Assembly: GCA_919902235.1 (NCBI GenBank)
Contig: CAKKQX010000296.1
Span: 1 to 41,153, forward strand
DNA from: Burkholderiales bacterium
GTDB taxonomy: Bacteria; Pseudomonadota; Gammaproteobacteria; Burkholderiales; SG8-41
Direction of reading: 5' to 3'
Length of the DNA: 41,153 nt
The notes beneath the pieces were generated by a model that saw only the letters and a program-made list of their open reading frames with translations, was not told where the DNA came from and searched no databases. How positions within the stretch are numbered: position 1 is the stretch's first letter; every line of letters begins with the position of its first letter. Of the stretch, positions 27,108-40,412 are shown in pieces. Both the position numbers and the translations under genes were made by a program.

Positions 27108-27108
27108 C

Positions 27109-27227: not shown

Positions 27228-27692
27228 ATGAAATGCCCATTCTGCAAATCCGCCGATACACAGGTCATCGACTCGCGCGTCAGCGATGATGGCGACAGCA
27301 TACGCAGGCGCCGGCGTTGCGCGGACTGCAGCAAGCGTTTTACCACGTATGAAACGGTCGAATTGCGCATGCCGCAGGTCGTCAAACAGGACGGCAGTCG
27401 CACCGAGTTCGATCTGGAGAAGCTGCGCACCGGTTTCATGCGCGCGCTTCACAAACGGCCGGTGCCGACATCCCTGGTCGACGAATCGGTCGCAACAATA
27501 ACTCAGAACGTGCTATCGCTCGGCGAGCGGGAGATCGCGTCGCGGCGCATCGGCGAGATGGTGATGCGCGAACTGCACAAACTCGACCAGGTGGCCTATA
27601 TTCGCTTCGCTTCCGTCTACAAGAGTTTCGAGGATATAGACGACTTTCAGGACGCGATCAAGGAAGCGCAACGCCCTGTGGGCAGGAAGTAA
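27228..27692 (+). CDS. nrdR: Transcriptional repressor NrdR
   Basis: [17 protein letters not shown]...[16 protein letters not shown] zinc ribbon followed by an ATP-cone. 154 aa. Confidence 0.95.
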
Positions 27693-27702
27693 GTGGCTTG
27701 CA

Positions 27703-28794
27703 ATGTCCGCCGCTGAAGATCGCTGCCATATGCTCCGCGCGCTGGAACTTGCGCGGCGCGGCCTTTACACAACCACGCCCAATCCGCGCGTGGGTTGCGT
27801 AATCGCGCGCGACGGCGAGGTCGTCGGCGAGGGCTGGCATGAAAAGGCCGGGGCGCCGCATGCCGAAGTCAGCGCGCTGCGCGCAGCAGGCGCCAGCGCG
27901 CGCGGCGCAACCGCCTACGTGTCGCTCGAGCCCTGCGCCCATCACGGCCGTACGCCGCCTTGCAGCGACGCCCTGATCGCGGCGGGAATCGCGCGCGTGG
28001 TCGCGGCCCTGCGCGACCCCAACCCGCAGGTGGCAGGCAGGGGATTGCGGGCGCTCGAAGATGCGGGCATTGCCACCGGCTGCGGCGTGCTCGAGGACGA
28101 GGCGCGCGAACTCAATATCGGGTTTGTGTCGCGCATGACGCGCGGCCGGCCGTGGGTCCGCCTGAAGCTTGCGGCCAGCCTCGACGGCAAGACCGCGCTG
28201 CTCAACGGCAAAAGCCAGTGGATCACCGGCGCGGCGGCGCGACGCGACGGCCACCTGTGGCGCGCGCGCGCCTGCGCGGTGCTGACCGGCATCGGCACCG
28301 TGAAAGACGACGATCCGCAACTCACCGTGCGCGAGATCGAGACAGCGCGCCAGCCGCTGCGCGTCGTCGTCGACAGCCGTCTGGAGACGCCGCTTGGCGC
28401 GAAAATCCTGGCCGGCGGCGGCACGCTGGTGGTGGGAGCGGCGGCGGACAGCGCGCGCATGGACGCACTTGAAGCCGCGGGCGCGCAGGTGCTGATGCTG
28501 CCGAATGCGGCAGGCAAGGTAGCGCTTGGCGAACTGATGCGGGAGCTCGGCCGGCGCGAAATCAATGAGCTGCATGTCGAGGCCGGATTCAGGCTCAACG
28601 GCTCGCTGCTGCAGGAAGCTTGCGTCGACGAACTGGTGGTTTACCTGGCGTCGCATCTCATCGGCGACGCCGCGCGCGGCATGTTCCATTTGCCCGAGCT
28701 CAAGGATCTTGACGGGCGGCGCCAGCTCGACATCCGGGACTTGCGGATGATCGGCGGGGATATTCGCATTACAGCCAGAGTGACCAACGCATAA
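27703..28794 (+). CDS. ribD: Bifunctional diaminohydroxyphosphoribosylaminopyrimidine deaminase / 5-amino-6-(5-phosphoribosylamino)uracil reductase
   Basis: Deaminase motifs HAEV and EPCAHHGRTPPC, plus a C-terminal reductase domain. 363 aa. Confidence 0.93.
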   Translation: MSAAEDRCHMLRALELARRGLYTTTPNPRVGCVIARDGEVVGEGWHEKAGAPHAEVSALRAAGASARGATAYVSLEPCAHHGRTPPCSDALIAAGIARVVAALRDPNPQVAGRGLRALEDAGIATGCGVLEDEARELNIGFVSRMTRGRPWVRLKLAASLDGKTALLNGKSQWITGAAARRDGHLWRARACAVLTGIGTVKDDDPQLTVREIETARQPLRVVVDSRLETPLGAKILAGGGTLVVGAAADSARMDALEAAGAQVLMLPNAAGKVALGELMRELGRREINELHVEAGFRLNGSLLQEACVDELVVYLASHLIGDAARGMFHLPELKDLDGRRQLDIRDLRMIGGDIRITARVTNA

Positions 28795-29384
28795 TGTTCA
28801 CCGGAATCGTTGCCGCAGTGGGAAAAATTGCCGGGGTCAGACCGACGCCGGGCGGCGTCGCGCTCACCGTGGATGCGGGGGCGCTGGCGCTGGATGACGT
28901 GGTGGCAGGCGACAGCATTGCGGTCAACGGCGTGTGCCTGACGGTGACCGCGTTGCGGCAGGCCGTCTTCGAGGCCGACGTGTCGCAGGAAACGTTGCAC
29001 TGCGCCGCAGGATTCACCGAAGAAGCCCGCGTCAATCTGGAAAAAGCCCTGCGCCTGTCCGACCGCCTCGGCGGTCATCTGGTAAGCGGTCACGTCGACG
29101 GCGTGGGCGATGTCAGGCGCTTCGAGGCAGCGGGCGACAACCGCCTGCTGCGGGTTGCCGCGCCTGCGGACATCGCGAAATACATCGCGCATAAAGGTTC
29201 GGTCACGATCAACGGTGTGAGCCTGACGGTGAACGAGATTGACGGTGTTGAATTCACGGTCAACCTGATCCCGCACACGCTGCAGGCGACCAATCTGCGG
29301 CACGTTCAGCCCGGCGACCGCGTCAATCTTGAAGCCGACATCATGGCGCGATATGTCGAACGGCTTCTAACGACGTCCAAGTAA
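28794..29384 (+). CDS. ribE: Riboflavin synthase (alpha chain)
   Basis: MFTGIV start. Internal duplication GDSIAVNGVCLTV / GSVTINGVSLTV. TAATG overlap with ribD. Confidence 0.93.
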   Translation: MFTGIVAAVGKIAGVRPTPGGVALTVDAGALALDDVVAGDSIAVNGVCLTVTALRQAVFEADVSQETLHCAAGFTEEARVNLEKALRLSDRLGGHLVSGHVDGVGDVRRFEAAGDNRLLRVAAPADIAKYIAHKGSVTINGVSLTVNEIDGVEFTVNLIPHTLQATNLRHVQPGDRVNLEADIMARYVERLLTTSK

Positions 29385-29394
29385 GTCTCTATAT

Positions 29395-29520
29395 TTATAG
29401 TTGACGGAGCTTCGCTACAGCCCGCTCGGAGCCATACTGCTTCTTCGCCATACATTGACTCCTTCTTCCAAGTTGAACACTACAACATTCAACCCGGCAC
29501 AGAAAAAGCCAGTCAGGTCA
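29395..29520 (-). mobile_element. Possible stub of an IS3-family insertion sequence (left inverted repeat, RBS and first 18 codons of orfA)
   Basis: The minus strand reads TGACCTGACTGGC... (IS3-like TGA terminus at 29520), then GAAGGAG, 7 nt, and ATG at 29451 encoding MAKKQYGSERAVAKLRQL*. This resembles the x-E-E/Q-I-V-A-K-L-R-Q N-termini of some IS3-family OrfA proteins. Very short and called from memory only. Confidence 0.3.
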
Positions 29521-29581
29521 CTTTAATCTCTGCGTCAACTTACCTGCAAAGCACGCACCTACACCTATCAAGTAAATCGAC

Positions 29582-30016
29582 CTAAACCTTTTTTAATCGC
29601 TCGGGCTCGACGATCGCTTCCACCTCGATCTCGATCATCGCGTCGCGATGGCCGAGTCGTACCACCTCAATGAGTACACTCGCTGGCCGATTCTTCTTGA
29701 AATATTCGAATCGCACTGCCGAGCACCGATAATACTCATCGATGTCGGTGACGTAGGTCGTCGATCGCACCACATCATCAAAGGTTGCACCGGCGTACGC
29801 GAGCCCCTTCCGGAGGTTTTCACACACCTTTCGCAACTGAGTGGTCATATCGCCTTTTCCGACGATTTCCCCCGTTGGCTCTCTCGCCATTTGGCCGGCG
29901 AGGTACACGTGAGCGTGGTCCTTGCCATGTACCGTCACGACTGGCACATATAGCAAATTGCCGTTTTCCACACGCTTCCACATGTCGTCCGGACACAAAA
30001 ACTGCCGCTCGATCAT
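29582..30016 (-). CDS. Rid (YjgF/YER057c/UK114) family protein, non-RidA subgroup
   Basis: 144 aa. VYLAGQMA...GDMTTQLRKVCENL...VRSTTYVTD...RPASVLIEVVRL...MIEIEVEAIV follows the Rid fold pattern. The RidA Arg105 position is Ser. Confidence 0.8.
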   Translation of the reverse strand: MIERQFLCPDDMWKRVENGNLLYVPVVTVHGKDHAHVYLAGQMAREPTGEIVGKGDMTTQLRKVCENLRKGLAYAGATFDDVVRSTTYVTDIDEYYRCSAVRFEYFKKNRPASVLIEVVRLGHRDAMIEIEVEAIVEPERLKKV

Positions 30017-30025
30017 CGTTTTCTC

Positions 30026-31018
30026 CTATTCGGGCTTGATGCCAACTGTTTTCACGATTCGATCGTACTTCTCGTGCTCCGCCGCGAGGAAGTCGCGCAT
30101 CTGCTGAGGAGAGCGCAGCGACGGTTCCGCCGCCTGGGCTTTCAGTTTTTCGCCCACTTCCTGCGAAGATACGGCCTTCGAGATCTCCGCGTGCAGCCGT
30201 TTTTGTACGTCGGTCGGCAGACCCCTCGGCGCGGCGAGGCTGTGGAACTCGAGAACCTCGTACCCCTTGATTCCGGATTCATCCAGCGTTGGAACCCCCG
30301 GCAGATAGCGCGAGCGCTGGAGACTGGTCACCGCCAACGCGCGCAGCTTGGCGCTTTGCGCTATCGGCGCAGCCTGAAACGCGTTCAAAAAGATCATTTC
30401 GATTTCACCGCCGAGCGTCGCGTTGACCGACATGATCCCGGCCTTGTACGGAACGTGACTGATGTCCGCACCCGACATGCTCTTGAAGTACTCGCCCATC
30501 AGGTGTGTAATCCCGCCCGTGCCGCCGGAGCCAAAGCGGACCATGTTCGGCTTCGATTTCGTGAGCGATACCAGGTCTGCTACCGAACGTGCCGGCAGAC
30601 TTGGGTGTACCAACAAGACGTTAACGATTGTCGCCACGGTGGTAAGCGGCGTAATGTCCCGGGCGAGATCGTAGGGCGCTTTGCCATAGACGATCGGCAC
30701 GATCACCTGCGTATTGCCGATGGTCATGATCGTATAACCATCAGCGGCCGAGCGTACTGCTGCTTCCATGCCGATTCTGCCGGCCGCGCCGGGCCTGTTA
30801 TCGACAAGCACCTGCTGGCCCAGCTGCTCGGTGAGCTTCTGCGCGACGATGCGCGCGATCAGGTCGTAGCTCCCACCCGCTCCGTAAGGAGCAATCAGAC
30901 GTATTGGTTTTGTGGGAAAGGTTTGCGCCTCCGCCAGCGACAACCCGAACAGTGCGCAGGTCGCAAACAACAGAACACTTGCGCGGAGATGCATCTTCAG
31001 CGTGACATTGCGAGGCAT
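30026..31018 (-). CDS. Bug-family (TctC-like) substrate-binding protein
   Basis: Signal peptide, then FPTKPIRLIAPYGAGGSYDLIARIVAQKL...VDNRPGAAGRIG...AADGYTIM. 330 aa. 9 nt upstream of the Rid gene. Confidence 0.87.
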   Translation of the reverse strand: MPRNVTLKMHLRASVLLFATCALFGLSLAEAQTFPTKPIRLIAPYGAGGSYDLIARIVAQKLTEQLGQQVLVDNRPGAAGRIGMEAAVRSAADGYTIMTIGNTQVIVPIVYGKAPYDLARDITPLTTVATIVNVLLVHPSLPARSVADLVSLTKSKPNMVRFGSGGTGGITHLMGEYFKSMSGADISHVPYKAGIMSVNATLGGEIEMIFLNAFQAAPIAQSAKLRALAVTSLQRSRYLPGVPTLDESGIKGYEVLEFHSLAAPRGLPTDVQKRLHAEISKAVSSQEVGEKLKAQAAEPSLRSPQQMRDFLAAEHEKYDRIVKTVGIKPE

Positions 31019-31077
31019 GGCAGGCTCCTTTCAGTGTGAGTGGGGTTACATGCTGTTGCGGGCTTCTTGCATGCTGG

Positions 31078-31842
31078 CTAGATCGGCAGATTCACGGAGA
31101 AGCGAAACTGGTAGTACTGGCTCAGAAACGTGGTGCATCCATATGCTAGCGGCTTGCCATGGAACAAATACGTAAGGTTCTTGACGAGCACCGGCACGCC
31201 TGCTTTGGTTCCGAGCACACGGGCAAGCTCGGCGTCCGCAAGACCGCTCGTCACCTCCGCATGCAATTGGGCCGAGTGTTCGCCGGTTGCTTTCTTCAGC
31301 AGCACCAGCATGGGCTCGCTCTCGGCGTAGTGCGACGAGATGCGCTTGCCCAAGGCATCCGGAAAGTACCGCTCTTCGAGACCTACCGGAATGCCGTCTA
31401 CCTTGCGCAAGCGTCGCAAGTGCCACACATCCTCGTGAGCTTCGAGCTGAAGCGCGCACCGCACTGTTTCCGGCGCGCGCACACGTTGCCAATCGAGGAG
31501 GCGCAGCTGGACACTGCGCTTTGCGGCTTTCATCTCACCCTCGAAGCCGTGGGTCATCTCGTGTCGAAGTCGCGGCGCGACAAAAGTGCCGCGCCCTTTC
31601 TGCCTCACGACGAGGCCACTCCGTGTCAGATGATGCATCGCCTGACGCACTGTGGGGCGGCTCACGTGGAAGTGCTGCACGCAGGCTGCCTCTGAAGGAA
31701 GCACTTTGCCAACAGCGCTCTTCCCCGCGTGCTCGATCAGGTTGGACAGGCTTTCGGCAAGCTGCATGTAAAGAGGTACAAAACTTCGAGTGTCGAGCGG
31801 CTCGACCTCAGCAAGCTGAAAAGCAGATTCTGTATTATTCAT
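31078..31842 (-). CDS. GntR-family transcriptional regulator, HutC/UTRA subfamily
   Basis: From the ATG at 31842: winged-HTH LPSEAACVQHFHVSRPTVRQAMHHLTRSGLVVRQKGRGTFV and a UTRA-like C-terminal half. The upstream 159 track codons overlap the divergent gene and are rejected. Confidence 0.85.
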   Translation of the reverse strand: MNNTESAFQLAEVEPLDTRSFVPLYMQLAESLSNLIEHAGKSAVGKVLPSEAACVQHFHVSRPTVRQAMHHLTRSGLVVRQKGRGTFVAPRLRHEMTHGFEGEMKAAKRSVQLRLLDWQRVRAPETVRCALQLEAHEDVWHLRRLRKVDGIPVGLEERYFPDALGKRISSHYAESEPMLVLLKKATGEHSAQLHAEVTSGLADAELARVLGTKAGVPVLVKNLTYLFHGKPLAYGCTTFLSQYYQFRFSVNLPI

Positions 31843-31965
31843 ATAAATGATAGAACGTGCGGATATCTTTACAAATATGCAAGCACGTGTCAACATGGGT
31901 GCACATCTTTCGCATTCGCAGGGTGCCCCGACTTCACCCCAGTCTCTTGCAGAGGAAGAGGAGCC

Positions 31966-33255
31966 ATGGACCGTAAAACCATCAGTGAAATCGTCGAAAC
32001 CGTCAGTCCCGAACGATGCGCCGAACTCGCCGTGGCACTGGTCGATGTTCCCAGCCTGACCGGAAACGAGCAGCCAATCGCTGAGTGTGTGCATGGAATT
32101 CTCGGCGAGATGGGCGCCGATACTTATATGCAGGAGTTCGAGCCTGGACGCTACAACGCGATCGGCCGGATCCGCGGGCGGGGCGACGGCGCGACCCTGC
32201 TGCTCAACGGCCATATGGATATCGCCTTCTCCGGCACCGAGCCGTACCTGCCGAAGGGTCCCGGCTACCAGCCGAAAGCTGTGGTCAAAGATGGCTGGAT
32301 TTATGGCATGGGCGTGCACAACATGAAAGGGGGGTGTGCAGCCTTTCTTGCCGCAGCAGAAGCCATCAGGAAGTCAGGAATCGAGCTGCGCGGCGACCTG
32401 CTGATGGCGTTCGTCGGCGGCGAAATCGAGCGCCACTCCATCAACCAGTACCAAGGCGCAAGCTTTCGCGGCGGTGGCTGCGGGACCAAGCACTTCGTGA
32501 CAAACGGTGGCATCGCAGACATGGCGGTGGTGGGCGAGCCCACCCGCATGATGCTCATCAACGAACACGTCGGCTCCGTTGCGGTGCGTATTACGACCCG
32601 GGGCATGCCGGCTCCGTTGCGCGTCTCCGACCATGGTTCCAACGCGATCAAAAAGATGCAGGTGCTGATCGACGTATTCGACGCCTACGCGGAGGAATAT
32701 TCCATGCGCCACGCATACAAGGACGGACATGCGACGGTGCACATGCATTCGATCGAAGGGGGCTGGCCTTTCCGCTGCAATCGCGTGCCGATCTTCTGCC
32801 ACGTTTTTCTAGAGTATCGGCTCATGCCTAACCAGAAGGTGAACGAAGTGCCGCTCGACCTCGAGCTGCTGCTCAATCGAGTCCGGCAGAAGCGGCCCGA
32901 CATCACATTCGACACCGAGTTTTTCGTGACGCTTCCCCCGGCTCAGGATTGCTCCAAGACCTGCATCGCGGATGCGATACGCGTGGCGCACAAGAGTGTG
33001 ACGAACACGCCGCCGGAAGAAGGCATCGGGCTTTTCTATTCGGACGCGAGTCATTTGCAGGCATACGGCATCCCTGCCATCAACTACGGACCCTCGGGTC
33101 GGACCATCACCAACAAGGAAAACTGGGACCCCGAAATCGGGGAGCATTTGAGTATAGAGGACCTCACCGAGACGGCAAAGGTCTATACCGCGCTCGCGCT
33201 CGATGTCTGCAGCAAGACGCGGGAAGAATTGGGCCTGCGCCCGCCGGGTCTCTGA
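31966..33255 (+). CDS. M20-family metallohydrolase (ArgE/DapE/ACY1/CPG2-like deacylase or peptidase)
   Basis: The ATG at 31966 follows GAGGAAGAGGAG. LTGNEQPIAE, LLLNGHMDIAF (His-x-Asp metal site), GGEIERHS and the FYSDASHL region. 429 aa. Confidence 0.8.
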   Translation: MDRKTISEIVETVSPERCAELAVALVDVPSLTGNEQPIAECVHGILGEMGADTYMQEFEPGRYNAIGRIRGRGDGATLLLNGHMDIAFSGTEPYLPKGPGYQPKAVVKDGWIYGMGVHNMKGGCAAFLAAAEAIRKSGIELRGDLLMAFVGGEIERHSINQYQGASFRGGGCGTKHFVTNGGIADMAVVGEPTRMMLINEHVGSVAVRITTRGMPAPLRVSDHGSNAIKKMQVLIDVFDAYAEEYSMRHAYKDGHATVHMHSIEGGWPFRCNRVPIFCHVFLEYRLMPNQKVNEVPLDLELLLNRVRQKRPDITFDTEFFVTLPPAQDCSKTCIADAIRVAHKSVTNTPPEEGIGLFYSDASHLQAYGIPAINYGPSGRTITNKENWDPEIGEHLSIEDLTETAKVYTALALDVCSKTREELGLRPPGL

Positions 33256-33396
33256 TCAGCACCCCTTGGCAGCGAACGTAACGGAAAGCATGCACACTTG
33301 AGCGATGCTGAGGGAATTGCCAATTCCACCTGCACGCAGGCTCGGAGGCGCCGGGCCTGCGTGCAGGTGCGACTTTTTGAAAATGAAGGAGCGCGC

Positions 33397-34779
33397 TTGT
33401 CACAGCGGCACAAAAAAAAATCCAATGAGTGGCCTGTCTATGTGACGGCCGGCCCTTTCATGTTTTTCAGCGGTCAACTGGGTTCCACACATGAAGGCAG
33501 GTTGATCACGCGTTACGCTGAGACCCCTAACGCAGGGGCGCGAACGAACACCTCGTTCGACTGGGTCAGTGACATGGAGGCACCCGTAGGCGGACAGGCG
33601 ATCGCTATCTACGAGCGCTACCGCGAGATGCTCGCACGGGAAGGGAGCAATCTGGAGCACCTGCTACGCTATCACATCTACCAGCGCGACAAACACTTCT
33701 TTTCCGTGTTTGACCGCATACGCCGGACTTACGAAACAAAGCCACCGGCCAGCACGGCAGTAGGCCTGGGGCGTTTCGATCCGCTCGGCCGTGCCACCTT
33801 GTGCATAGACGCCATCGCGCTGCGCGCCTCGGCGGAAGGGGTGCTTGGTCCACGCAGCGTGCTGTCAGGTTCGGCGAGACACCTTGCCCCCGCAACCTTT
33901 TCAAATGTCATCGGCGCCGGTCCTTATATTTTCCTCGCGGGACAGATTCCCATCGACACGTCCAGGCCGGGCGCGCCGCTCATACGCGGCTATGACGACA
34001 TACCAAAGGAGGGACGCTTCCTGCGCGTTGGCCGCAGTCACGAGGACACGCGTAATGGTCCCATCGCAGCACAGACCTGGTTTACCTACGATCTGATCCG
34101 GCAACATCTCGAGGCCGTCGGATCCTCGCTGGACCAGATATTGAATCTTGTCGTGTACCTGCAGGATATCCGGGATTTCCCCACGTTTCACCGGGTGCAC
34201 GAACGGTTTTTTGGATCAAGCGCACCAGCACTCACGGTTACGGAGTCCGCGGAGGTCGGGCACAAGGGTACACTTATCGAGATCGAACCGACAGCCGTTA
34301 TTCCCGGTCGGGGAGTGGAACGTCTCGTGCTGCAGCCACCCGGCTGGCGCGCCCCCGCTCACATGAGCGCAGCAGTCTGCGGCGGCGGCCTCGTGTTTTT
34401 CTCGGGACTCGTCGGGGCGAGCGAATCAGGCATGCCCGTCGAAACCGCGGCGGAACTGCCTATGCAAGCGCAGAAATACATCAGCCCTGGGCTTGATTCC
34501 GATCCTTATGCGCTTCAGGCAGCCGCTGCGGTGATACGACTGGTCGCGCAGCTCAACGCGCTCAAACGTCATCTCAAAGACATCGCACATCTGACAGTAT
34601 ACATAGACAATATCGACCGCTTTACGGTGGTCGAGAAGGTGCTCGCTGACGTATTGGGAACATGGCGCCCTGCAATCACGCTGCTCGAGGTTCCTGCTGT
34701 TGCCCCTATGCGAGGCGCGCGTGTGTCGCTGACTGCGATTGGCTGGTTCGGGAAAGATGCACCAAAATCGAACATGTAG
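33397..34779 (+). CDS. Three tandem Rid (YjgF/UK114) domains in a single polypeptide
   Basis: Proposed TTG start at 33397, 6 nt after GAAGGAG; the track ORF starts at a TTG at 33298. Three modules each carry GPFMFFSGQ / GPYIFLAGQ / GGLVFFSGL and PASTAV..LCIDAIAL / PALTVT..LIEIEPTAV / PAITLL..VSLTAIGW. Confidence 0.75.
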   Translation: MSQRHKKKSNEWPVYVTAGPFMFFSGQLGSTHEGRLITRYAETPNAGARTNTSFDWVSDMEAPVGGQAIAIYERYREMLAREGSNLEHLLRYHIYQRDKHFFSVFDRIRRTYETKPPASTAVGLGRFDPLGRATLCIDAIALRASAEGVLGPRSVLSGSARHLAPATFSNVIGAGPYIFLAGQIPIDTSRPGAPLIRGYDDIPKEGRFLRVGRSHEDTRNGPIAAQTWFTYDLIRQHLEAVGSSLDQILNLVVYLQDIRDFPTFHRVHERFFGSSAPALTVTESAEVGHKGTLIEIEPTAVIPGRGVERLVLQPPGWRAPAHMSAAVCGGGLVFFSGLVGASESGMPVETAAELPMQAQKYISPGLDSDPYALQAAAAVIRLVAQLNALKRHLKDIAHLTVYIDNIDRFTVVEKVLADVLGTWRPAITLLEVPAVAPMRGARVSLTAIGWFGKDAPKSNM

Positions 34780-34932
34780 TGGATCGGATCCGTCACGCGC
34801 GCGAGCAGGGCGTACCACAGTCGGAATCCGTGTAACTGCCCAGGCGCAGCAGCCAGGCAAAGGCTGCAAAAATTGCAAAGTGCCGGATTGAAGGCACGAT
34901 ATTCCTTTTGCTGATTTCGAAGATAGTCCAGT

Positions 34933-35796
34933 TCATAGCTTGCCGAAGCCGAACAGCGTTTGCGGATTGTCGACCAGCACTTTGCGGCGCAGCGATTCCT
35001 CGGGCAGCCATGCGCCGAGCAGATTGAGAAGCTGCACGCTGCCCACTTTGTCGGCGAAGGATAGGTGCGGATGATCGCTGCCCCAAATTAGCCGCTCCGG
35101 CGCGGCCTTCGCTACGGCGCGCACCATGGGCGCGGCGTCGGCGAAATCGGGCGCGGTGGCGAAGCGGTAGGGCGCGGTCAGCTTGAGCCAGCAGCGACCG
35201 CCATCGCACAGCTTGAGCAGGTCGCGGAATCCCGCTTGATCGACGCCGTCCTTTGCCAGGAACATGCCGATGTGGCAGAGAATGAAATCGATGTCGAGTT
35301 TGCGCAGCGTCGGCATCAGCGCATGCGTGAGCCAGCCCGGACCGAGAAACTCCAGCACCCAGCCCAGGCCCTTCAGGCGGTTTTCCAGCGTCCTGATGCG
35401 GCCGAGCAGCGCATCGGCGCGGCCAGGATCGTACGGTGCAACGGGGGAGGTATTGATGCGCACCCCGCGCACCCCGCGCGCATGCAACGCCTCGATTTCG
35501 GCGTCTGCCAGGTTTTCAGCGATGTCGACGATGCCGAAACAGGGGGCGTTTATACGCGCCATCGAGTCGAGCATATAGCGGTTGTCGGTGCCGTAAGCGC
35601 TGGGCTGCACGAACACGAAGCGTTCCATGCCGAGTTTTTTTGCGAGCTGCAGGTAAGCGTCGAGCGGCGCATATGGGGGATCGTAGCGCGCGCGCGAGGC
35701 AGGCGGATAGTTGTCGGGCGGGCCAAAGACGTGGAAATGCGTGTCGCAGGCCCCGGGCGGGGCCTTGAATGCGGGTTGGAGTTTTTCTTCGAGCAT
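34933..35796 (-). CDS. Amidohydrolase-2 family metal-dependent hydrolase (LigI/ACMSD-like)
   Basis: From the ATG at 35796: CDTHFHVFGP (HxH metal site), FVFVQPSAYG, CHIG and IWGSDHPH, typical of PF04909. 287 aa. The upstream track extension is rejected. Confidence 0.8.
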   Translation of the reverse strand: MLEEKLQPAFKAPPGACDTHFHVFGPPDNYPPASRARYDPPYAPLDAYLQLAKKLGMERFVFVQPSAYGTDNRYMLDSMARINAPCFGIVDIAENLADAEIEALHARGVRGVRINTSPVAPYDPGRADALLGRIRTLENRLKGLGWVLEFLGPGWLTHALMPTLRKLDIDFILCHIGMFLAKDGVDQAGFRDLLKLCDGGRCWLKLTAPYRFATAPDFADAAPMVRAVAKAAPERLIWGSDHPHLSFADKVGSVQLLNLLGAWLPEESLRRKVLVDNPQTLFGFGKL

Positions 35797-36104
35797 GGTT
35801 TTGCGGGAGCGTTCCGTTGAAAATCCGGCGCGCGTATTGCGCACCTGAACATGGGTGTATCGGGCCAAAACCCGCATTGTATGGCAATCGCCGCAGGCGC
35901 TGCAGCTCCTGCGGCCATGCCCGGGCCAATGAAATACGGCCTGCCGCTGCGGAGGAATCCCGCTTACATAAGCGGGCCCGATTTTTCTACCTCCTGTATC
36001 ATGTGGAGCTTTCCGAAAAAACACGCAAAAAGCACGGGATGGGGGATGTATTTCCTGTCCCGGCAGTGGTTTTTCGACGGCATTTCGAAGGAATCCTGAA
36101 CACC

Positions 36105-37205
36105 ATGGCTATCAGCCCGATCACCGAAATCATCGCCGACATCAAGGCCGGCAGAATGGTTGTGCTCGTCGACGAGGAAGACCGCGAAAACGAGGGCGAT
36201 TTGCTGATGGCGGCAGAATTCGCTACGCCCGAGGCCATCAACTTCATGGCGCGCTACGGCAGGGGGCTCATCTGCCTGACGCTGAACGAAGAGCGCTGCC
36301 GGCAGCTCAACCTGCCGCTGATGGTTTCCAACAACCGCTCGCCGCTGGGCACCAATTTCACGCTGTCGATCGAGGCCGCCGAGGGCGTGACCACCGGCAT
36401 TTCCGCCGCTGATCGCGCGCGCACCGTGCAGGCCGCGATACGCGCCGATGCCGGGCCGCGCGACATCGTGCAACCGGGACATATTTTTCCGCTGATGGCG
36501 CAGGACGGTGGCGTGCTGGTGCGCGCCGGCCATACCGAAGCGGGCTGCGACCTGGCACGGCTCGCGGGTGTGCTGCCGGCGGCGGTGATCTGCGAAATCC
36601 TCAAGGACAACGGCGAGATGGCGCGCCTGCCCGATCTGGAGGAGTTCGCCGCGCAGCATAAACTCAGGATCGGCACCATCGCCGATCTCATTCACTACCG
36701 CAGCAGTACCGAGTCGCTGGTCAGGCGCGCGGCGGAGCGCGATATCGAAACCGTGCACGGCCGTTTCCGGCTGTGTGCCTACAGCGACAAGATCGGCAAG
36801 GCCACGCATCTGGCGCTGGTCAAGGGCGAACCGCGGGCGGACAGGGAAGTGCTGGTACGCGTGCACGAACCCCTGTCGGTGATCGATTTGCTGGATGCCG
36901 GCAGTACCAGCCACTCATGGAACTTCCACGATGCGCTGGCAGCCATAAGCAGGGCGGAATGCGGCGTGATCGTGCTGCTGCACCGCCTGGAAACGGCGGA
37001 TGAACTGCTGGCACACGTGCGGCCGCAGCATGAGAACGGCACGACATCCAAGATCGCGCTTCGCAATTACGGCATAGGCGCGCAGATACTGCGCGATCTC
37101 AAGGTCAGGAAAATGCGCCTGCTGGCGCTGCCGCGCCGCATGCCCAGCATGACGGGCTTCGACCTCGAAGTGACCGGCTATCTGCAGCCCCATGAAAAAT
37201 ATTAA
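36105..37205 (+). CDS. ribBA: 3,4-dihydroxy-2-butanone-4-phosphate synthase fused to a degenerate GTP cyclohydrolase II-like domain (RibBX type)
   Basis: The ATG at 36105 gives MAISPITEIIADIKAGRMVVLVDEEDRENEGDL..., a canonical RibB. The C-terminal domain aligns to RibA but reads VRVHEPLSVIDLLDAGSTSHSW where RibA has the zinc-ligand cysteines (VHSECLTGD...LRCDCG). Confidence 0.9.
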   Translation: MAISPITEIIADIKAGRMVVLVDEEDRENEGDLLMAAEFATPEAINFMARYGRGLICLTLNEERCRQLNLPLMVSNNRSPLGTNFTLSIEAAEGVTTGISAADRARTVQAAIRADAGPRDIVQPGHIFPLMAQDGGVLVRAGHTEAGCDLARLAGVLPAAVICEILKDNGEMARLPDLEEFAAQHKLRIGTIADLIHYRSSTESLVRRAAERDIETVHGRFRLCAYSDKIGKATHLALVKGEPRADREVLVRVHEPLSVIDLLDAGSTSHSWNFHDALAAISRAECGVIVLLHRLETADELLAHVRPQHENGTTSKIALRNYGIGAQILRDLKVRKMRLLALPRRMPSMTGFDLEVTGYLQPHEKY

Positions 37206-37229
37206 ATATATTATATAAATCAATTAGTT

Positions 37230-37709
37230 ATGTCAAAATACGACAACATAGAAGAAGTGGATCCGGATTTGCGCGGCGCAGGCCTGCGCATCGGCATAGT
37301 GATGAGCCGGTTCAATACCGATATCGGCGAGGGACTGCTGTCAAGTTGCACCGCGGCGCTGATCAAGCATGGCGTGCGCGCGGCCGATATGATCATCGTC
37401 ACCGTTCCCGGTGCGCTCGAAGTGCCGCTCGCGCTGCAGAAAATGGCGCAAAGCGGGCGTTACGACGCGCTGATCGCACTCGGCGCGGTGATCCGCGGCG
37501 AAACCTATCATTTCGAGATCGTTTCCAACGAAGCGAGCGGCGGCGTCACTGCGGTGCAGCTGGATAGCGGGGTGCCGATCGCCAATGGCATCCTGACCAC
37601 CGAGAACGACGATCAGGCGCTGGCGCGCATGGCGGAAAAAGGCGCGGATTGCGCCAAGACGGCGATCGAAATGGCGAACCTGTTGCGGCGGATCGGCGAT
37701 GAAAAGTAG
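37230..37709 (+). CDS. ribH: 6,7-dimethyl-8-ribityllumazine synthase
   Basis: [18 protein letters not shown] and [12 protein letters not shown]. 159 aa. Confidence 0.95.
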
Positions 37710-38124
37710 CCGGCGGCGCTCGCGCGAGTTCGTGTTGCAGGGCCTGTATCAGTGGCAGCTGGCGCAGACCGATCCCCAAAACATCGCCAAACAGCTGGCC
37801 GAAGCCAAGGGTTTTGAGAAAATAGACACCGAGTATTTCATGGCGCTGCTCAACGGAACGGTGGGCAATGCGCCTGCACTCGAGCAGGAAATCGCGCCTT
37901 GTCTCGACCGCGGATTCAAGCACCTGAGCCCGGTCGAACGCGGCATCCTGTTGCTTGCATGCTTTGAATTCATGCATCAGCCGCAAGTGCCGTACCGGGT
38001 GGTGATCAATGAAGCGGTCGAGCTGGCCAAAGCCTACGGCGGCACCGACGGCCACAAATTCGTCAATGGCGTGCTCGATAAACTCGCGTCGCGCGTGCGG
38101 ACAGCGGAGATGGGAGCGGCATAA
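37699..38124 (+). CDS. nusB: Transcription antitermination factor NusB
   Basis: [17 protein letters not shown], and the [16 protein letters not shown]-terminus. Overlaps the ribH stop. Confidence 0.93.
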
Positions 38125-38155
38125 TGACGCGTTTACAAAAATAGTGGAGAACGAT

Positions 38156-38407
38156 GTGGATCCAAGACTGAAAAGGCGGATTTTCTATTTTTATTTTGCC
38201 GGGTTGGTCAATCTCGTGCTGGGCCTCTACGTGCTGATATACGGCAGATCTTTTCTTTCGCAGGGCACGGTATTGATGCTGGTGCTGTTCTTCTTCGGCT
38301 TTGCCGCAGTCGATTTTTATTTTCCGCAGGCGTTGAAAAAGAAATGGGCCGATTACCAGAAGCAGCTCGCGCAGGAGCAGCAGCGCAAACAGTCCGGTCA
38401 GGCCTGA
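38156..38407 (+). CDS. Small two-TM membrane protein, unknown function
   Basis: GTG at 38156, 6 nt after GGAG (alternative GTG at 38144). ...RRIFYFYFAGLVNLVLGLYVLIYG...GTVLMLVLFFFGFAAVDFYFP followed by a charged tail KKKWADYQKQLAQEQQRKQ. The part of the track ORF that overlaps nusB is rejected. Confidence 0.5.
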   Translation: MDPRLKRRIFYFYFAGLVNLVLGLYVLIYGRSFLSQGTVLMLVLFFFGFAAVDFYFPQALKKKWADYQKQLAQEQQRKQSGQA

Positions 38408-38432
38408 GCGGACCCGGCGGCGGTGTGATTCC

Positions 38433-39401
38433 ATGCTGTCCGAGTTCGAACTGATCCGGCGCTACTTTACGCACCCCGCGCGCAACGCGCGGCTGGGCGT
38501 GGGCGACGATGCGGCGCTGGTGCGCGTGCGCCGCGGCATGGAACTGGCGGTTTCGACGGACATGCTGGTTGCAGGGCGGCATTTTTTCGCGGCTGCCGAT
38601 CCCGAAAAACTGGGCCACAAGGCGCTGGCGGTCAACCTTTCCGACATGGCGGCAATGGGCGCGACGCCGCGCTGGGCGACGTTGTCGCTGGCATTGCCGG
38701 CAATCGACCCCGCCTGGCTGGACGCATTTGCGCGCGGCTTCATGCGGCTTGCCCGCCGCCACGGCGTGGATCTCGTCGGCGGCGATACCACGCGCGGCCC
38801 GCTCAACATCTGCGTGCAGATCATGGGCGAAGTTCCCGCCGGCCAGGCGCTGACCCGCGCCCGCGCGCGCGCCGGCGACGACATCTGGGTGTCGGGACAA
38901 CTGGGCGATGCCGCGCTCGCGCTGGCGGCATTGAAAAAGCGCATCCGTCTCAAGCCGCGCGAAGCGGCGGCGGCGGCGCGGCGGCTGCATGCGCCCGCGG
39001 CGCGCATCGCGCTTGGCACGGCGCTGCGTAAAATCGCGCACAGCGCAATCGACATTTCCGACGGATTGGTCGCCGATCTCGGCCATATCTGCGAGTGCTC
39101 CGGCGTGGCTGCAGTGATCGAGTACGAGCAACTTCCGGTATCGCCGGTATTGCGGCGTTATCTCGACCGGCCCGCGGCGCGCAGGGCGCTGCTGGCCGGC
39201 GGCGATGATTACGAATTGTGTTTCACGGCGGCGCGCACGCGGCGCAACCGGGTTGAGCGCGCGGGATTGCGCGCGGGCGTGAAAGTGGCGCGTATCGGCC
39301 GTATCATCGCGCCGCCAGCCGGTGCGTGGGGGGTGGTGGTGACGGACCGCGACGGCATGCCGCTTAAGCCCGGCCGCACCGGATTCGATCACTTTGGCTG
39401 A
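38433..39401 (+). CDS. thiL: Thiamine-monophosphate kinase
   Basis: GVGDDAALV, AVNLSDMAAMGATP, GGDTTRGP and ISDGL motifs. 322 aa. Confidence 0.92.
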   Translation: MLSEFELIRRYFTHPARNARLGVGDDAALVRVRRGMELAVSTDMLVAGRHFFAAADPEKLGHKALAVNLSDMAAMGATPRWATLSLALPAIDPAWLDAFARGFMRLARRHGVDLVGGDTTRGPLNICVQIMGEVPAGQALTRARARAGDDIWVSGQLGDAALALAALKKRIRLKPREAAAAARRLHAPAARIALGTALRKIAHSAIDISDGLVADLGHICECSGVAAVIEYEQLPVSPVLRRYLDRPAARRALLAGGDDYELCFTAARTRRNRVERAGLRAGVKVARIGRIIAPPAGAWGVVVTDRDGMPLKPGRTGFDHFG

Positions 39402-39888
39402 TCTGATTGCAAAGCCTTCATGGCGTTTCGTTTGGCGCCATCCCGCGCACTGGCTGGCATTCGGCGGCGGCATCGGCCTGCTGCCTGTGGCGCCGGGCAC
39501 GGCCGGCACGCTGCTCGCGTTGCCGCTGTTCTGGCTGCTCGCGCCGCGTGTTGCGGCTTTCGAACTGCTGGCGCTGATCGCGGCCATGTTCGCGGCCGGT
39601 ATCTGGGCCTGCGGCCGGACCGGGCGCGCGCTCGGCGTGGCGGACCATGGCGGCATGGTGTGGGACGAGATCGTTGCGTTCATGCTGGTGCTGTTCTTCA
39701 CGCCCGATAATCTGTACTGGCAGGCGTTCGCATTCCTGCTGTTCCGGCTGTTTGATATTTTCAAGCCGCCGCCGATCGCCTACTATGACCGCACCTTCAA
39801 GAGCGGCTTCGGTGTGATGCTCGATGACCTGATCGCGGCGTTTTACGTCCTGGTGCTGCTGGCGCTGGCAAGCGCTGTGTTGAGATGA
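39394..39888 (+). CDS. pgpA: Phosphatidylglycerophosphatase A
   Basis: GGGIGLLPVAPGTAGTLLALPL, VWDEIVAF and DIFKPPPI motifs. TTG start overlapping the thiL stop; the exact start is uncertain. Confidence 0.87.
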   Translation: MADLIAKPSWRFVWRHPAHWLAFGGGIGLLPVAPGTAGTLLALPLFWLLAPRVAAFELLALIAAMFAAGIWACGRTGRALGVADHGGMVWDEIVAFMLVLFFTPDNLYWQAFAFLLFRLFDIFKPPPIAYYDRTFKSGFGVMLDDLIAAFYVLVLLALASAVLR

Positions 39889-39899
39889 GGAAACAGGGT

Positions 39900-40412
39900 A
39901 TGGCGGACGCTGGACTGTATGCATTGGCCGAACACGTCGGGCAGGCGTTGAAGACACGAGGGTTCATGCTGGCAACGGCCGAATCCTGCACCGGCGGCTG
40001 GATTGCCGAGGCGGTGACCATGGTGCCCGGCAGTTCGGCTTGGTTCGAGCGTGGATTTGTCACTTATACCTATATTTCCAAACGCGAAATGCTCGGCGTG
40101 AAGGCGGCAACGCTGGAACAGCACGGCGCGGTATCCGAGCACACGGTCGCGGAGATGGCACAGGGCGCACTTGCGGGCAGTCACGCCCAGATTGCGGTGG
40201 CGGTGAGCGGCACTGCCGGTCCCGGCGGCGGCACGCCAGGCAAACCAGTGGGCACGGTATGCATCGCCTGGAACGCGAAGGGCGGTGCGGCGAGGAGCGA
40301 AACGCAACATTTTGCGGGCGACCGTGAAATGGTGCGCAAGCAGTCGGTGCTGCGCGCATTGCAGGGTATTCTGGATTTGCTGCAGGATGAGGAAAATAAG
40401 CAGGAAAAATAA
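39900..40412 (+). CDS. pncC: CinA-family nicotinamide-nucleotide amidohydrolase (PncC domain only)
   Basis: LATAESCTGGWIAEAVT, GVVSY-like FVTYTYISKREMLGV and VSGTAGPGGGTPGKPVGTV. The ATG at 39900 follows AGGAAACAGGG; an ATG at 39885 is an alternative. Confidence 0.85.
   Translation: MADAGLYALAEHVGQALKTRGFMLATAESCTGGWIAEAVTMVPGSSAWFERGFVTYTYISKREMLGVKAATLEQHGAVSEHTVAEMAQGALAGSHAQIAVAVSGTAGPGGGTPGKPVGTVCIAWNAKGGAARSETQHFAGDREMVRKQSVLRALQGILDLLQDEENKQEK

What the first reader, a model, noticed from the sequence alone, without database searches (positions are those of the whole stretch)
33397..34779. Single-chain triple Rid/YjgF-domain protein: a covalent pseudo-trimer with the RidA catalytic arginine replaced in every module
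**Three modules.** Read by eye, the product splits into three consecutive modules of about 130-140 aa (approx. nt 33430-33825, 33889-34305, 34351-34752).
**Fold signatures.** Each module has both signature segments of the YjgF/YER057c/UK114 (Rid, PF01042) fold. The N-terminal strand G-x-[FYL]-x-F-[FL]-[SA]-G appears as GPFMFFSGQL, GPYIFLAGQI and GGLVFFSGLV. The C-terminal strand pair appears as PPASTAVGL...LCIDAIAL, APALTVTES...LIEIEPTAV and RPAITLLEV...RVSLTAIGW.
**Why a fusion matters.** Canonical Rid proteins are single domains of about 125 aa that act as homotrimers, with active sites in the three inter-subunit clefts. A three-domain chain would therefore be a covalent pseudo-trimer whose three clefts can diverge independently.
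**Not a recent duplication.** The modules are strongly diverged from one another.
**Missing arginine.** The residue aligned with E. coli RidA Arg105 (P-A-R-S) is S, L and I in the three modules. The imine-hydrolysing arginine of RidA/Rid1-3 is thus absent, as in the poorly understood Rid4-7 subfamilies.
I know of no characterised triple-Rid protein.
Basis: partly seen in the sequence, partly recalled or inferred. Interest (0 to 1): 0.8.

Follow-up and report, generated by a model that had tools for sequence, protein, structure and literature searches.

The report
Single-chain triple Rid protein, arginine-less
This gene really does encode three diverged Rid/YjgF domains in one chain with no catalytic arginine, but fused Rid trimers are already known and common, so it is an uncharacterised, lopsided variant of a known design.

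Summary
Window 33397-34779 (+) encodes a 460-aa protein. Each third passes the Pfam PF01042 threshold on its own. The thirds are 23-25% identical to one another. The RidA Arg105 position is Ser119, Leu279 and Ile427. An AlphaFold2 model (pLDDT 85, pTM 0.89) repeats the same strand/helix pattern three times. Its best PDB matches are chorismatases, aligned over about 413 columns.

The novelty claim does not hold. "3x-RidA" fusions were named in 2015. Chorismatases and cyanuric acid hydrolases are characterised enzymes described as concatenated YjgF trimers. About 100 of the best 150 representative relatives have triple-domain length.

What is new is the asymmetry. The middle module carries 59 invariant residues, the first 24 and the third 6. 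Down to about 30% identity the survivors are Ser119 and Arg109 (module 1) and Glu295, His289 and an insert loop (module 2). I infer one working cleft between modules 1 and 2.

In betaproteobacterial MAGs the gene travels with a single-domain Rid, a TctC binding protein and an M20 hydrolase closest to 5-nitroanthranilate aminohydrolase. The likely role is catabolism of a nitrogen-bearing carboxylate. The substrate is unknown.

The parts
33397..34779 (+). Coding sequence of the 460-aa triple-Rid protein. Start is TTG; the stop codon is included.
   Evidence: ORF. The start is set by the ribosome-binding site and by the N-termini of homologues. PF01042 matches in three stretches.
33386..33391 (+). 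Shine-Dalgarno AAGGAG, five bases before the TTG start.
   Evidence: Read directly from the sequence.
33430..33825 (+). Module 1 (residues about 12-143). The RidA-Arg105 position is Ser119 (nt 33751-33753). Arg109 is at nt 33721-33723. Both are invariant down to about 30% identity.
   Evidence: PF01042 at 30.8 bits. Alignment to RidA. Invariant residues.
33889..34305 (+). Module 2 (residues about 165-303), the most conserved module. It keeps the RidA-Glu120 equivalent, Glu295 (nt 34279-34281). His289 is at nt 34261-34263. Leu279 sits at the Arg105 position. A roughly 27-aa insert loop carries H215, D217, R219, G221, P222, Q226 and W228.
   Evidence: PF01042 at 60.6 bits. 59 invariant residues. 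Best PDB sequence match is 3lyb. Alignment. Broad-family invariants.
34351..34752 (+). Module 3 (residues about 319-452), the least conserved module. Ile427 sits at the Arg105 position and Ser444 at the Glu120 position.
   Evidence: PF01042 at 35.1 bits. Only 6 invariant residues. Alignment.
33327..33369 (+). Hairpin with a 19-pair GC-rich stem followed by a T-run (CGACTTTTTG). It lies between the M20 stop codon and the triple-Rid ribosome-binding site. It looks like a terminator or attenuator.
   Evidence: and the sequence.
31966..33255 (+). M20-family hydrolase immediately upstream. Its closest solved relative is 5-nitroanthranilate aminohydrolase.
   Evidence: Pfam hit. NCBIfam ArgE/DapE models all score below their cut-offs. 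PDB 5k8m matches at E 1e-40 over the full length. Orthologues at 64-85% identity lie within 3 kb of the triple-Rid gene in 11 of 22 loci.
31078..31842 (-). GntR/HutC-type regulator with a UTRA effector domain, transcribed divergently from the M20 and triple-Rid genes.
   Evidence: Present at the same relative position in L007, L013, L016 and L057.
30026..31018 (-). TctC/Bug-type periplasmic binding protein of a tripartite tricarboxylate transporter.
   Evidence: Pfam hit. Nearest solved relatives are 5oei, the terephthalate-binding protein 8hka and Bug27. An orthologue at 45% identity or more lies next to the triple-Rid gene in 18 of 22 loci.
29582..30016 (-). Single-domain Rid protein of 144 aa. 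It also lacks the arginine (motif P-A-S) but keeps Glu in its IEIE strand.
   Evidence: An orthologue at 67-88% identity is present in 17 of 22 loci.
34933..35796 (-). Amidohydro_2 protein resembling 4-sulfomuconolactone hydrolase. It is a neighbour in this window only and is not a conserved partner.
   Evidence: Found in 1 of 22 loci.

Best explanation
**Shown.** The gene encodes a real, conserved 460-aa protein made of three tandem Rid/YjgF-fold modules. Conservation is very unequal. Module 2 is nearly frozen. The C-terminal half of module 1 is conserved. Module 3 is mostly free to vary. None of the modules has the RidA arginine, and each keeps only 2 of the 7 residues that define the RidA pocket.

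**Inferred: origin.** The protein descends from triplication of a long-insert, arginine-less Rid similar to PDB 3lyb. That protein has Ser at the Arg105 position and Glu at the Glu120 position.

**Inferred: one working cleft.** In Rid trimers, Glu120 reaches across the interface towards the Arg105/Cys107 strand of the neighbouring subunit. After fusion, only one of the three clefts keeps both halves of the ancestral pocket. These are Ser119 (with Arg109, Arg91, Asp98 and Lys99) from module 1, and Glu295 (with His289 and the H215-W228 insert loop) from module 2. I therefore read the protein as a monomeric pseudo-trimer with one main active site at the module 1/module 2 cleft. There may be a second pocket at the module 2/3 cleft. 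Module 3 would mainly close the barrel.

**Inferred: possible relocated arginine.** Arg109 lies on the helix that carries RidA Asn88 and Tyr91. It may take over carboxylate binding from the lost Arg105.

**Inferred: role.** The gene is part of a portable catabolic module. The module comprises a TctC uptake protein, a GntR/UTRA regulator, a NaaA-like M20 C-N hydrolase and a single-domain Rid. In another clade the partners are a molybdopterin oxidoreductase and amidases. My best guess is that it performs a Rid-type acid/base step, either hydrolysis or tautomerisation. The substrate would be an unstable enamine/imine-like or related carboxylate intermediate made by the neighbouring C-N hydrolase. 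Glu295 would be the proton donor or acceptor. The substrate is unknown.
For: **Architecture**
- Each third hits PF01042 above threshold.
- The modules are homologous at 96-99% hhalign probability.
- The AF2 model has pLDDT 85.2 and pTM 0.89, with three identical secondary-structure repeats.
- Foldseek's top hits are chorismatases over about 413 columns (target-normalised TM 0.60-0.64). Single Rid structures follow, at target-normalised TM about 0.7-0.9.
- It is a real gene. At least 270 homologues were found, full-length at 54-84% identity. 47 genome loci carry it.

**Asymmetry**
- Invariant residues are 24, 59 and 6 in modules 1, 2 and 3.
- In a 22-sequence alignment reaching 29% identity, the invariant residues are R109, S119, G175, G182, H215, G221, P222, Q226, W228, Y231, L238 and A426.
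- Near-invariant residues include R91, D98, K99, H268, H289 and E295.

**Pocket logic**
- 3lyb has Ser at the Arg105 position and Glu at the Glu120 position (alignment).
- In chorismatase Hyg5 the essential acid is Glu-334, which I place near the C-terminus from the roughly 333-residue chorismatase chains (PMC7170507; chain lengths).

**Context**
- A single-domain Rid is present in 17 of 22 non-redundant betaproteobacterial loci, TctC in 18 of 22 and M20 in 11 of 22. Gene order is shuffled between loci.
- The same five-gene block occurs in a different genomic setting in L057.
- The M20 is nearest to 5-nitroanthranilate aminohydrolase.
- In the second clade the partners are a Mo-oxidoreductase and amidases.
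Against: **Structure**
- I could not read the model coordinates. The pseudo-threefold symmetry, the pairing of module 1 with module 2 rather than module 3 with module 2, and the Ser119-Glu295 proximity were not measured.
- The pairing direction rests on the conservation pattern. It also rests on my recollection that the chorismatase site lies between domains 2 and 3.
- The Arg105 side of module 2 (R266, H268) is also conserved, so a second site, or a site on the central axis as in AtzD, is not excluded.

**Activity**
- No activity is known for any arginine-less Rid. S. enterica Rid7 showed no imine hydrolase activity (PMC4433059).

**Context**
- Neighbours differ between clades (M20 versus Mo-oxidoreductase and amidases), which weakens any single pathway assignment.
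- TctC genes are very numerous in Burkholderiales (my own knowledge), so some adjacency is background.
- All carriers are uncultured, so there is no experimental handle.
Confidence: 0.5

Rival explanations
1. It is an ordinary 3x-RidA: a covalent RidA trimer with three equivalent sites that hydrolyse 2-iminoacids or 2-aminoacrylate.
For: Sources annotate the homologues as "enamine deaminase RidA" or "2-iminobutanoate/2-iminopropanoate deaminase". The 3x-RidA class exists (PMC4433059). Canonical examples with P-A-R in all three modules were found (P0224, P0240).
Against: Arg105 is Ser, Leu and Ile in the three modules. Only 2 of the 7 RidA pocket residues survive per module. TIGR00004 scores 79.7 bits against a cut-off of 106.25. 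Conservation is strongly unequal between modules.
Confidence: 0.07
2. It is not an enzyme. It is a small-molecule-binding or accessory protein (sensor, carrier or chaperone-like partner) that serves whichever enzyme is encoded next to it.
For: Arginine-less Rid subfamilies have no known activity (PMC4433059). The partner enzyme differs by clade. It is M20 in Betaproteobacteria. In the Nitrospinota/unclassified clade it is a molybdopterin oxidoreductase whose stop codon abuts the triple-Rid start codon.
Against: The invariant set is rich in typical catalytic or polar side chains: Ser119, Arg109, His215, His289 and Glu295. The other two known concatenated YjgF folds are both enzymes.
Confidence: 0.2
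3. It is a distant chorismatase that cleaves the enolpyruvyl side chain of chorismate or a similar compound.
For: Chorismatases are the best structural matches over the whole chain (E about 2e-11, about 413 aligned columns).
Against: Identity is only 12-14% and the query-normalised TM-score is 0.45-0.48. No family other than Rid models appears in the Pfam or NCBIfam scans. The position that would carry the catalytic Glu in the last strand of domain 3 is Ser444. The neighbours are transport and C-N hydrolase genes, not shikimate or polyketide genes.
Confidence: 0.05
4. It is an artefact: three adjacent Rid genes wrongly merged, a pseudogene, or a misassembly.
For: The automatic gene call for this window is only 401 aa (P0001).
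Against: A single uninterrupted frame exists. More than 100 independent contigs carry full-length homologues of about 460 aa with conserved linkers. The short call simply starts at internal Met60. It removes conserved strands that are in frame upstream.
Confidence: 0.01

Closest known systems
[quoted passage not shown] EF_0115 of Enterococcus faecalis; Niehaus et al. 2015, PMC4433059)
   Same: Three PF01042 domains sit in one chain of about 380-460 aa. The protein is proposed to be a covalently linked version of the Rid homotrimer. Examples were recovered here as distant relatives (P0224, P0240).
   Different: The named class belongs to the RidA subfamily, and the examples seen here keep P-A-R in every module and have no long insert. 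The window protein has Ser, Leu and Ile at that position. It carries a roughly 27-aa insert in each module and shows very unequal conservation between modules. I could not obtain the EF_0115 sequence itself for a direct comparison.
PDB 3lyb, putative endoribonuclease KP1_3112 of Klebsiella pneumoniae (165-aa single-domain Rid, function unknown)
   Same: It is the best sequence and single-domain structural match to module 2 (E 4e-18 to 5e-24; target-normalised TM 0.85-0.90). It has the same long insert before helix 1. It has Ser at the Arg105 position and Glu at the Glu120 position.
   Different: It is a single domain of 165 aa, not a fusion. It is uncharacterised, so it gives no function.
Chorismatases FkbO/Hyg5 (PDB 4bps, 5ag3, 5a3k)
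   Same: They are the best whole-chain structural matches. From my own knowledge (Juneja et al. 2014, not readable here), FkbO is a monomer with pseudo-threefold symmetry related to YjgF trimers. It has a single active site in one interdomain cleft. A Glu near the C-terminus is the catalytic acid (PMC7170507).
   Different: Chorismatases are about 333 aa against 460 aa here, at 12-14% identity. There is no shared sequence family. The Glu that is kept here is in module 2, not module 3. The gene context is different.
Cyanuric acid hydrolase/barbiturase (AtzD, 'Toblerone' fold; PMC3758960)
   Same: [quoted passage not shown]
   Different: There is no Pfam hit to that family, and it is not among the 50 Foldseek matches listed. 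From my own knowledge, the AtzD site lies on the threefold axis and uses Ser-Lys dyads from all three repeats. Here conservation is concentrated in modules 1 and 2.
Rid-family deaminases of catabolic pathways (RutC, 2-aminomuconate deaminase AmnE)
   Same: These are Rid-fold proteins encoded in catabolic clusters that act on enamine intermediates (PMC8113886 abstract; PMC6742747 abstract). Both appear among the structural and sequence matches.
   Different: They are single-domain oligomers. The scores are weak (RutC model 30 bits against a cut-off of 169).

Membership tests
Rid/YjgF/YER057c/UK114 superfamily (PF01042) | A significant match to the family profile in each module. | tested here: met
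   30.8, 60.6 and 35.1 bits against a gathering score of 27.3.
Rid/YjgF/YER057c/UK114 superfamily (PF01042) | Chorismate-mutase-like fold (beta-beta-alpha-beta-alpha-beta-beta). | tested here: met
   The DSSP pattern repeats three times in the model. Solved Rid proteins match at target-normalised TM about 0.7-0.9.
Rid/YjgF/YER057c/UK114 superfamily (PF01042) | A trimeric barrel with three inter-subunit clefts, here expected within one chain. | tested here: inconclusive
   A pTM of 0.89 and a whole-chain match to chorismatases support it.
RidA-type imine/enamine deaminases (RidA, Rid1-3) | The arginine equivalent to E. coli RidA Arg105, which is essential for imine hydrolysis. | tested here: not met
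   Ser119, Leu279 and Ile427 occupy that position. The requirement is stated in PMC4433059.
RidA-type imine/enamine deaminases (RidA, Rid1-3) | The seven conserved pocket residues Tyr17, Gly31, Asn56, Asn88, Arg105, Pro114 and Glu120 (PMC1884159). | tested here: not met
   Module 1 has W12, G26, R74, D106, S119, P129, C136. Module 2 has F168, G182, L233, H265, L279, H289, E295. Module 3 has M323, G337, R381, E413, I427, P437, S444. Two of seven are kept in each module. This follows from the alignments and the residue list.
RidA-type imine/enamine deaminases (RidA, Rid1-3) | A score above the NCBIfam cut-off for TIGR00004 (Rid family detoxifying hydrolase). | tested here: not met
   79.7 bits against a cut-off of 106.25.
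3x-RidA (Niehaus 2015) | Three Rid domains fused in tandem in one polypeptide. | tested here: met
3x-RidA (Niehaus 2015) | The domains belong to the RidA subfamily (CDD YjgF_YER057c_UK114_family). | tested here: not met
   The RidA arginine and most pocket residues are absent and TIGR00004 scores below its cut-off. The CDD assignment itself could not be run.
Rid4-Rid7 (arginine-less subfamilies) | Arg replaced (Trp in Rid4 and Rid7, variable in Rid5 and Rid6), Glu kept, and a match to the corresponding CDD model. | not testable with these tools
   The residues are Ser, Leu and Ile, not Trp, so a Rid4/Rid7 type is unlikely. Glu is kept only in module 2.
Chorismatase (FkbO/Hyg5/XanB2) | Whole-chain structural similarity to the three-domain chorismatase fold. 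| tested here: met
   E about 2e-11, about 413 aligned columns, target-normalised TM 0.60-0.64.
Chorismatase (FkbO/Hyg5/XanB2) | Sequence-family membership, and the catalytic Glu in the last strand of the C-terminal domain. | tested here: not met
   Only Rid-type models appear in the Pfam and NCBIfam scans, apart from one chance-level hit to a replication-terminus protein. The equivalent position in module 3 is Ser444. The role of the Glu is taken from PMC7170507.
Cyanuric acid hydrolase/barbiturase (Toblerone fold) | A match to the family profile. | tested here: not met
   Pfam returns only PF01042 for the whole protein.

The most novel reading that the evidence does not exclude
This family would be a third enzyme lineage born by welding a Rid trimer into one chain, alongside chorismatases and cyanuric acid hydrolases. 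Two of the three clefts have been retired. The surviving module 1/module 2 cleft holds Ser119, a relocated Arg109, Glu295 and a His-rich insert loop. It would catalyse a reaction other than 2-iminoacid hydrolysis, on an aromatic or unsaturated nitrogen-bearing carboxylate. The gene sits inside a portable catabolic module so far seen only in uncultured bacteria. If so, it would also give the first functional handle on arginine-less Rid proteins.
Probability: 0.3. Interest if true: 0.7.

Novelty: new variant of a known kind. Interest (0 to 1): 0.42.

Why it matters
**Why the family is useful.** The function of Rid proteins that lack the catalytic arginine is an open question (PMC4433059). A fused trimer is a natural experiment. 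Once the subunits are joined, selection can keep one cleft and release the others. The conservation pattern then points to the residues that matter. Here it points to Ser119 and Arg109 in module 1, and to Glu295, His289 and the insert loop in module 2. That gives concrete mutants and a concrete pocket to test.

**Handle on the substrate.** The gene is tightly linked to a binding protein, a regulator and a C-N hydrolase, which gives a route to the substrate.

**Limits of the finding.** Fused Rid trimers as such are neither new nor rare, so the finding is a lead for specialists rather than a surprise.

Tried and rejected
1. **Chorismatase membership.** Rejected. The similarity is structural only, there is no shared sequence family, and the Glu position in module 3 is Ser.
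2. **Cyanuric acid hydrolase membership.** Rejected. No profile hit.
3. **Amidohydro_2 (34933-35796) as a conserved partner.** Rejected. It is present only in this window, in 1 of 22 loci. My first test used a wrong-frame query and is void for that protein.
4. **Greedy longest-ORF clustering of neighbours in the betaproteobacterial loci.** This undercounted small genes, because spurious antisense ORFs in GC-rich DNA masked them. I relied on tblastn counts instead.
5. **Follow-up literature on 3x-RidA.** The term occurs in only one paper.
6. **The chorismatase structure paper (Juneja 2014).** It is not held. Statements about pseudo-threefold symmetry and the location of its site are from my own knowledge.
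7. **Literature on arginine-less Rid4-7 function and on NaaA clusters.** Nothing useful was found.
8. **Model coordinates.** They are not exposed to the scripting tool. I could not superpose the modules or measure distances between conserved residues.
9. **Profile search of PDB sequences.** No solved chain contains three PF01042 domains of this kind.
Full report
**1. The observation**

The window has one uninterrupted frame at 33298-34779 (+). The most plausible start is TTG 33397, which sits five bases after a perfect AAGGAG (33386-33391). This gives 460 aa. Homologues from many assemblies have the same length and N-terminus.

The automatic call for this window (P0001, 401 aa) starts at internal Met60. 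It removes the first two conserved strands of module 1, so it is too short.

Pfam finds three PF01042 stretches in the whole protein. Each third scanned alone passes the gathering score of 27.3 bits: 30.8, 60.6 and 35.1 bits.

Profile-profile comparison of the three modules gives 96-99% probability of homology at only 23-25% identity. The triplication is therefore real and old.

I aligned the modules to E. coli RidA. Arg105 aligns with Ser119, Leu279 and Ile427. The HMMER alignment of module 2 to 2dyy shows the same P-A-R to P-A-L replacement.

**2. Structure**

An AlphaFold2 model built from a 52-sequence alignment has mean pLDDT 85.2 and pTM 0.89. Its secondary structure repeats the same pattern (beta-beta-alpha-beta-alpha-beta-beta) three times: E15-E142, E171-E301 and E326-E450.

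Foldseek against the PDB puts chorismatases first (5ag3, 4bps, 5a3k). They align over about 413 columns at target-normalised TM 0.60-0.64 and 12-14% identity. Single-domain Rid proteins follow, led by 3lyb at 0.85-0.90, with RidA/UK114 at about 0.8.

From my own knowledge, chorismatase FkbO is a monomer with pseudo-threefold symmetry derived from the YjgF fold. I could not read that paper here. A whole-chain match to it supports the single-chain pseudo-trimer reading. I could not access the model coordinates, so the symmetry itself was not measured.

**3. How new is a fused Rid trimer?**

It is not new.
- Niehaus et al. [quoted passage not shown] EF_0115 in Enterococcus faecalis V583)". [quoted passage not shown]
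- No later paper uses the term.

It is not rare either.
- A profile search of 1.84 billion representative proteins found 5414 relatives at E<=0.001, 558 at E<=1e-10 and 94 at E<=1e-30.
- About 100 of the best 150 are 380-490 aa long, many with 2-5 matched stretches.
- These include canonical triple RidA proteins with P-A-R in all three modules (P0224; P0240 from a diplonemid transcriptome).
- They also include sister families that share the long insert and the lack of arginine (P0142, P0144, P0154).
- One chain has six PF01042 stretches (P0173).

No solved structure contains three PF01042 domains of this kind.

**4. What is particular here: the three modules are not equal**

In the 52-sequence alignment (54-84% identity to the query) the invariant residues number as follows.

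| Module | Invariant residues | Module length (aa) |
|---|---|---|
| 1 | 24 | 148 |
| 2 | 59 | 154 |
| 3 | 6 | 149 |

In a broader 22-sequence alignment reaching 29% identity:
- The only invariant residues are R109 and S119 (module 1); G175, G182, H215, G221, P222, Q226, W228, Y231 and L238 (module 2); and A426 (module 3).
- Near-invariant residues add R91, D98, K99 and P116 (module 1).
- They add D217, R219, R266, H268, E286, H289 and E295 (module 2).
- They add only G330 and Q374 in module 3.

Ser119 is exactly the RidA-Arg105 position of module 1. Glu295 is the RidA-Glu120 position of module 2.

The seven residues that define the RidA pocket are Tyr17, Gly31, Asn56, Asn88, Arg105, Pro114 and Glu120 (PMC1884159). 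They map as follows, based on the alignments.

| RidA residue | Module 1 | Module 2 | Module 3 |
|---|---|---|---|
| Tyr17 | W12 | F168 | M323 |
| Gly31 | G26 | G182 | G337 |
| Asn56 | R74 | L233 | R381 |
| Asn88 | D106 | H265 | E413 |
| Arg105 | S119 | L279 | I427 |
| Pro114 | P129 | H289 | P437 |
| Glu120 | C136 | E295 | S444 |

Each module keeps two of seven.

**5. Inferred mechanism**

[quoted passage not shown] Each Rid pocket is therefore built from the Arg105/Cys107 strand of one subunit and the Glu120 strand of its neighbour.

The best single-domain relative, 3lyb, has the same long insert. It has Ser at the Arg105 position and Glu at the Glu120 position. A homotrimer of such a protein would have three Ser+Glu pockets.

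In the fused protein only one combination keeps both halves. These are Ser119 from module 1 and Glu295 from module 2. They lie in the two most conserved stretches of the protein. The other combinations are Leu279+Ser444 and Ile427+Cys136.

Pairing module 1 with module 2, rather than module 3 with module 2, is an inference. It rests on three things:
- The segment of module 3 that corresponds to residues 91-123 of module 1 is poorly conserved.
- In chorismatase Hyg5 the essential acid is Glu-334 (PMC7170507). Given chorismatase chains of about 333 residues, I place it near the C-terminus.
- From my own knowledge, the chorismatase site lies between domains 2 and 3.

I therefore propose one main active site at the module 1/module 2 cleft, with module 3 mostly structural.

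The invariant Arg109 lies on the helix that carries RidA Asn88 and Tyr91. Since Arg-105 contacts Asn-88 in TdcF, Arg109 could place a guanidinium near the old Arg105 site. This is a hypothesis, not a result.

A second pocket at the module 2/3 cleft (R266, H268), or a site on the central axis, is not excluded.

**6. Genomic context**

*The local cluster.* In the window the gene is the last of a divergent cluster:

| Coordinates | Strand | Gene |
|---|---|---|
| 29582-30016 | - | single-domain Rid |
| 30026-31018 | - | TctC binding protein |
| 31078-31842 | - | GntR/UTRA regulator |
| 31966-33255 | + | M20 hydrolase |
| 33397-34779 | + | triple Rid |
| 34933-35796 | - | Amidohydro_2 protein |

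*Conserved partners.* Counts within 6 kb across 22 non-redundant betaproteobacterial loci (some with short flanks) are as follows.

| Neighbour | Loci (of 22) | Identity to window protein |
|---|---|---|
| Single-domain Rid | 17 | 67-88% |
| TctC | 18 | 48-73% |
| M20 | 11 | 64-85% |
| GntR | 4 | 27-29% in the three related loci |
| Amidohydro_2 | 1 | this window only |

Order and orientation differ between loci, which argues for a functional link. The closest long contig has the same five-gene block in a different setting (L057). In one locus MmgE/PrpD replaces M20. The single-domain Rid also lacks the arginine (P-A-S).

*Nearest solved relatives of the partners.* The M20 protein matches ArgE/DapE models only below their cut-offs. 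Its closest solved relative by a wide margin is 5-nitroanthranilate aminohydrolase (5k8m, E 1e-40 over the full length, against 2e-20 for the next entry). The TctC protein is closest to 5oei, the terephthalate-binding protein 8hka and Bug27.

*The second clade.* In Nitrospinota and unclassified MAGs at about 50% identity, the gene directly follows a cytoplasmic-type molybdopterin oxidoreductase (stop at 8000, start at 8001 in L031). It lies next to two amidases and two 3-hydroxyisobutyrate-dehydrogenase-like genes.

*Reading of the context.* The shared theme is C-N bond hydrolases plus uptake of organic acids. I read this as catabolism of a nitrogen-bearing, possibly aromatic or unsaturated, carboxylate. 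The Rid-fold proteins would handle an unstable intermediate, in the way RutC (PMC8113886 abstract) and the Rid-family 2-aminomuconate deaminase AmnE (PMC6742747 abstract) do in their pathways. The substrate is unknown.

*Carriers.* All 47 genome loci come from metagenome-assembled genomes. They include Burkholderiales/Betaproteobacteria, Nitrospinota and Tectomicrobia, with distant copies in Hyphomicrobiales and Paracoccaceae. No cultured isolate appears.

**7. Comparison and verdict**

The protein is a member of the Rid superfamily. It has the 3x architecture already named in the literature.

It fails the tests for RidA-type deaminases: no arginine, 2 of 7 pocket residues per module, and TIGR00004 below its cut-off. 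It also fails the sequence tests for chorismatases and cyanuric acid hydrolases.

I file it as a new variant of a known kind. It is an arginine-less, long-insert, asymmetric triple Rid that probably works through a single differentiated cleft.

Its novelty claim is overstated. Interest is moderate. The family offers a clean way to find the functional residues of arginine-less Rid proteins and comes with a conserved gene module for finding the substrate. A specialist would not be surprised by the fusion itself.

Noticed in passing
window 33327-33369 (+): A hairpin with a 19-pair GC-rich stem, followed by CGACTTTTTG, lies between the M20 stop codon (33255) and the triple-Rid ribosome-binding site (33386). 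It looks like an intrinsic terminator or attenuator placed inside what otherwise looks like a two-gene operon. It may set the ratio of the two products or regulate read-through.
   Followed up: partly
window 25845-40412: The six-gene Rid/TctC/GntR/M20/triple-Rid/Amidohydro_2 block (29582-35796) interrupts a housekeeping array. The array is glyA, ribD (27703-28794), ribE (28794-29384), then the block, then ribBA (ends 37205), ribH (37230-37709), nusB (37699-38124), thiL, pgpA and a CinA-like gene. GC content drops to 0.584 at 30-32 kb, against 0.62-0.64 nearby. The same five-gene core sits elsewhere in a related contig (L057). The block therefore looks like an inserted, portable module.
   Followed up: partly
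window 33397-33574; proteins P0001, P0017, P0022 and others: The database gene call for this window (401 aa) starts at internal Met60. Several homologues are listed at 406-417 aa. These calls probably miss a non-ATG start and cut off the first two strands of module 1.
   Followed up: partly
window 29582-30016 (-); loci L001-L028: The neighbouring single-domain Rid is more conserved across loci (67-88% identity) than the triple Rid itself (53-67%). It also lacks the RidA arginine. Two different arginine-less Rid proteins are thus kept together.
   Followed up: partly
L031 5526-9392 (also L032-L040, L046, L047, L049, L051, L052): In a second clade the triple-Rid start codon directly abuts the stop codon of an 824-aa molybdopterin oxidoreductase (Molybdopterin_N, Molybdopterin and Molydop_binding domains). 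Two amidases and two HIBADH-like dehydrogenases lie downstream. This is a quite different partner set from the betaproteobacterial one.
   Followed up: partly
protein P0173 (803 aa, from the representative search): A single chain has six PF01042 stretches, that is two fused Rid trimers. The 2015 survey mentions only fusions of two, three or four domains.
   Followed up: partly
protein P0240 (384 aa): A canonical triple RidA with P-A-R in all three modules comes from a eukaryotic transcriptome (the diplonemid Lacrimia lanifica, EukProt). The fused form may therefore not be confined to bacteria. Contamination was not checked.
   Followed up: no
L048 10402-11348: In a Hyphomicrobiales MAG, a distant triple Rid (36% identity) is followed by two tandem single-domain Rid genes (143 and 148 aa) and a solute-binding protein. 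The triple-plus-single Rid pairing thus extends beyond Betaproteobacteria.
   Followed up: partly
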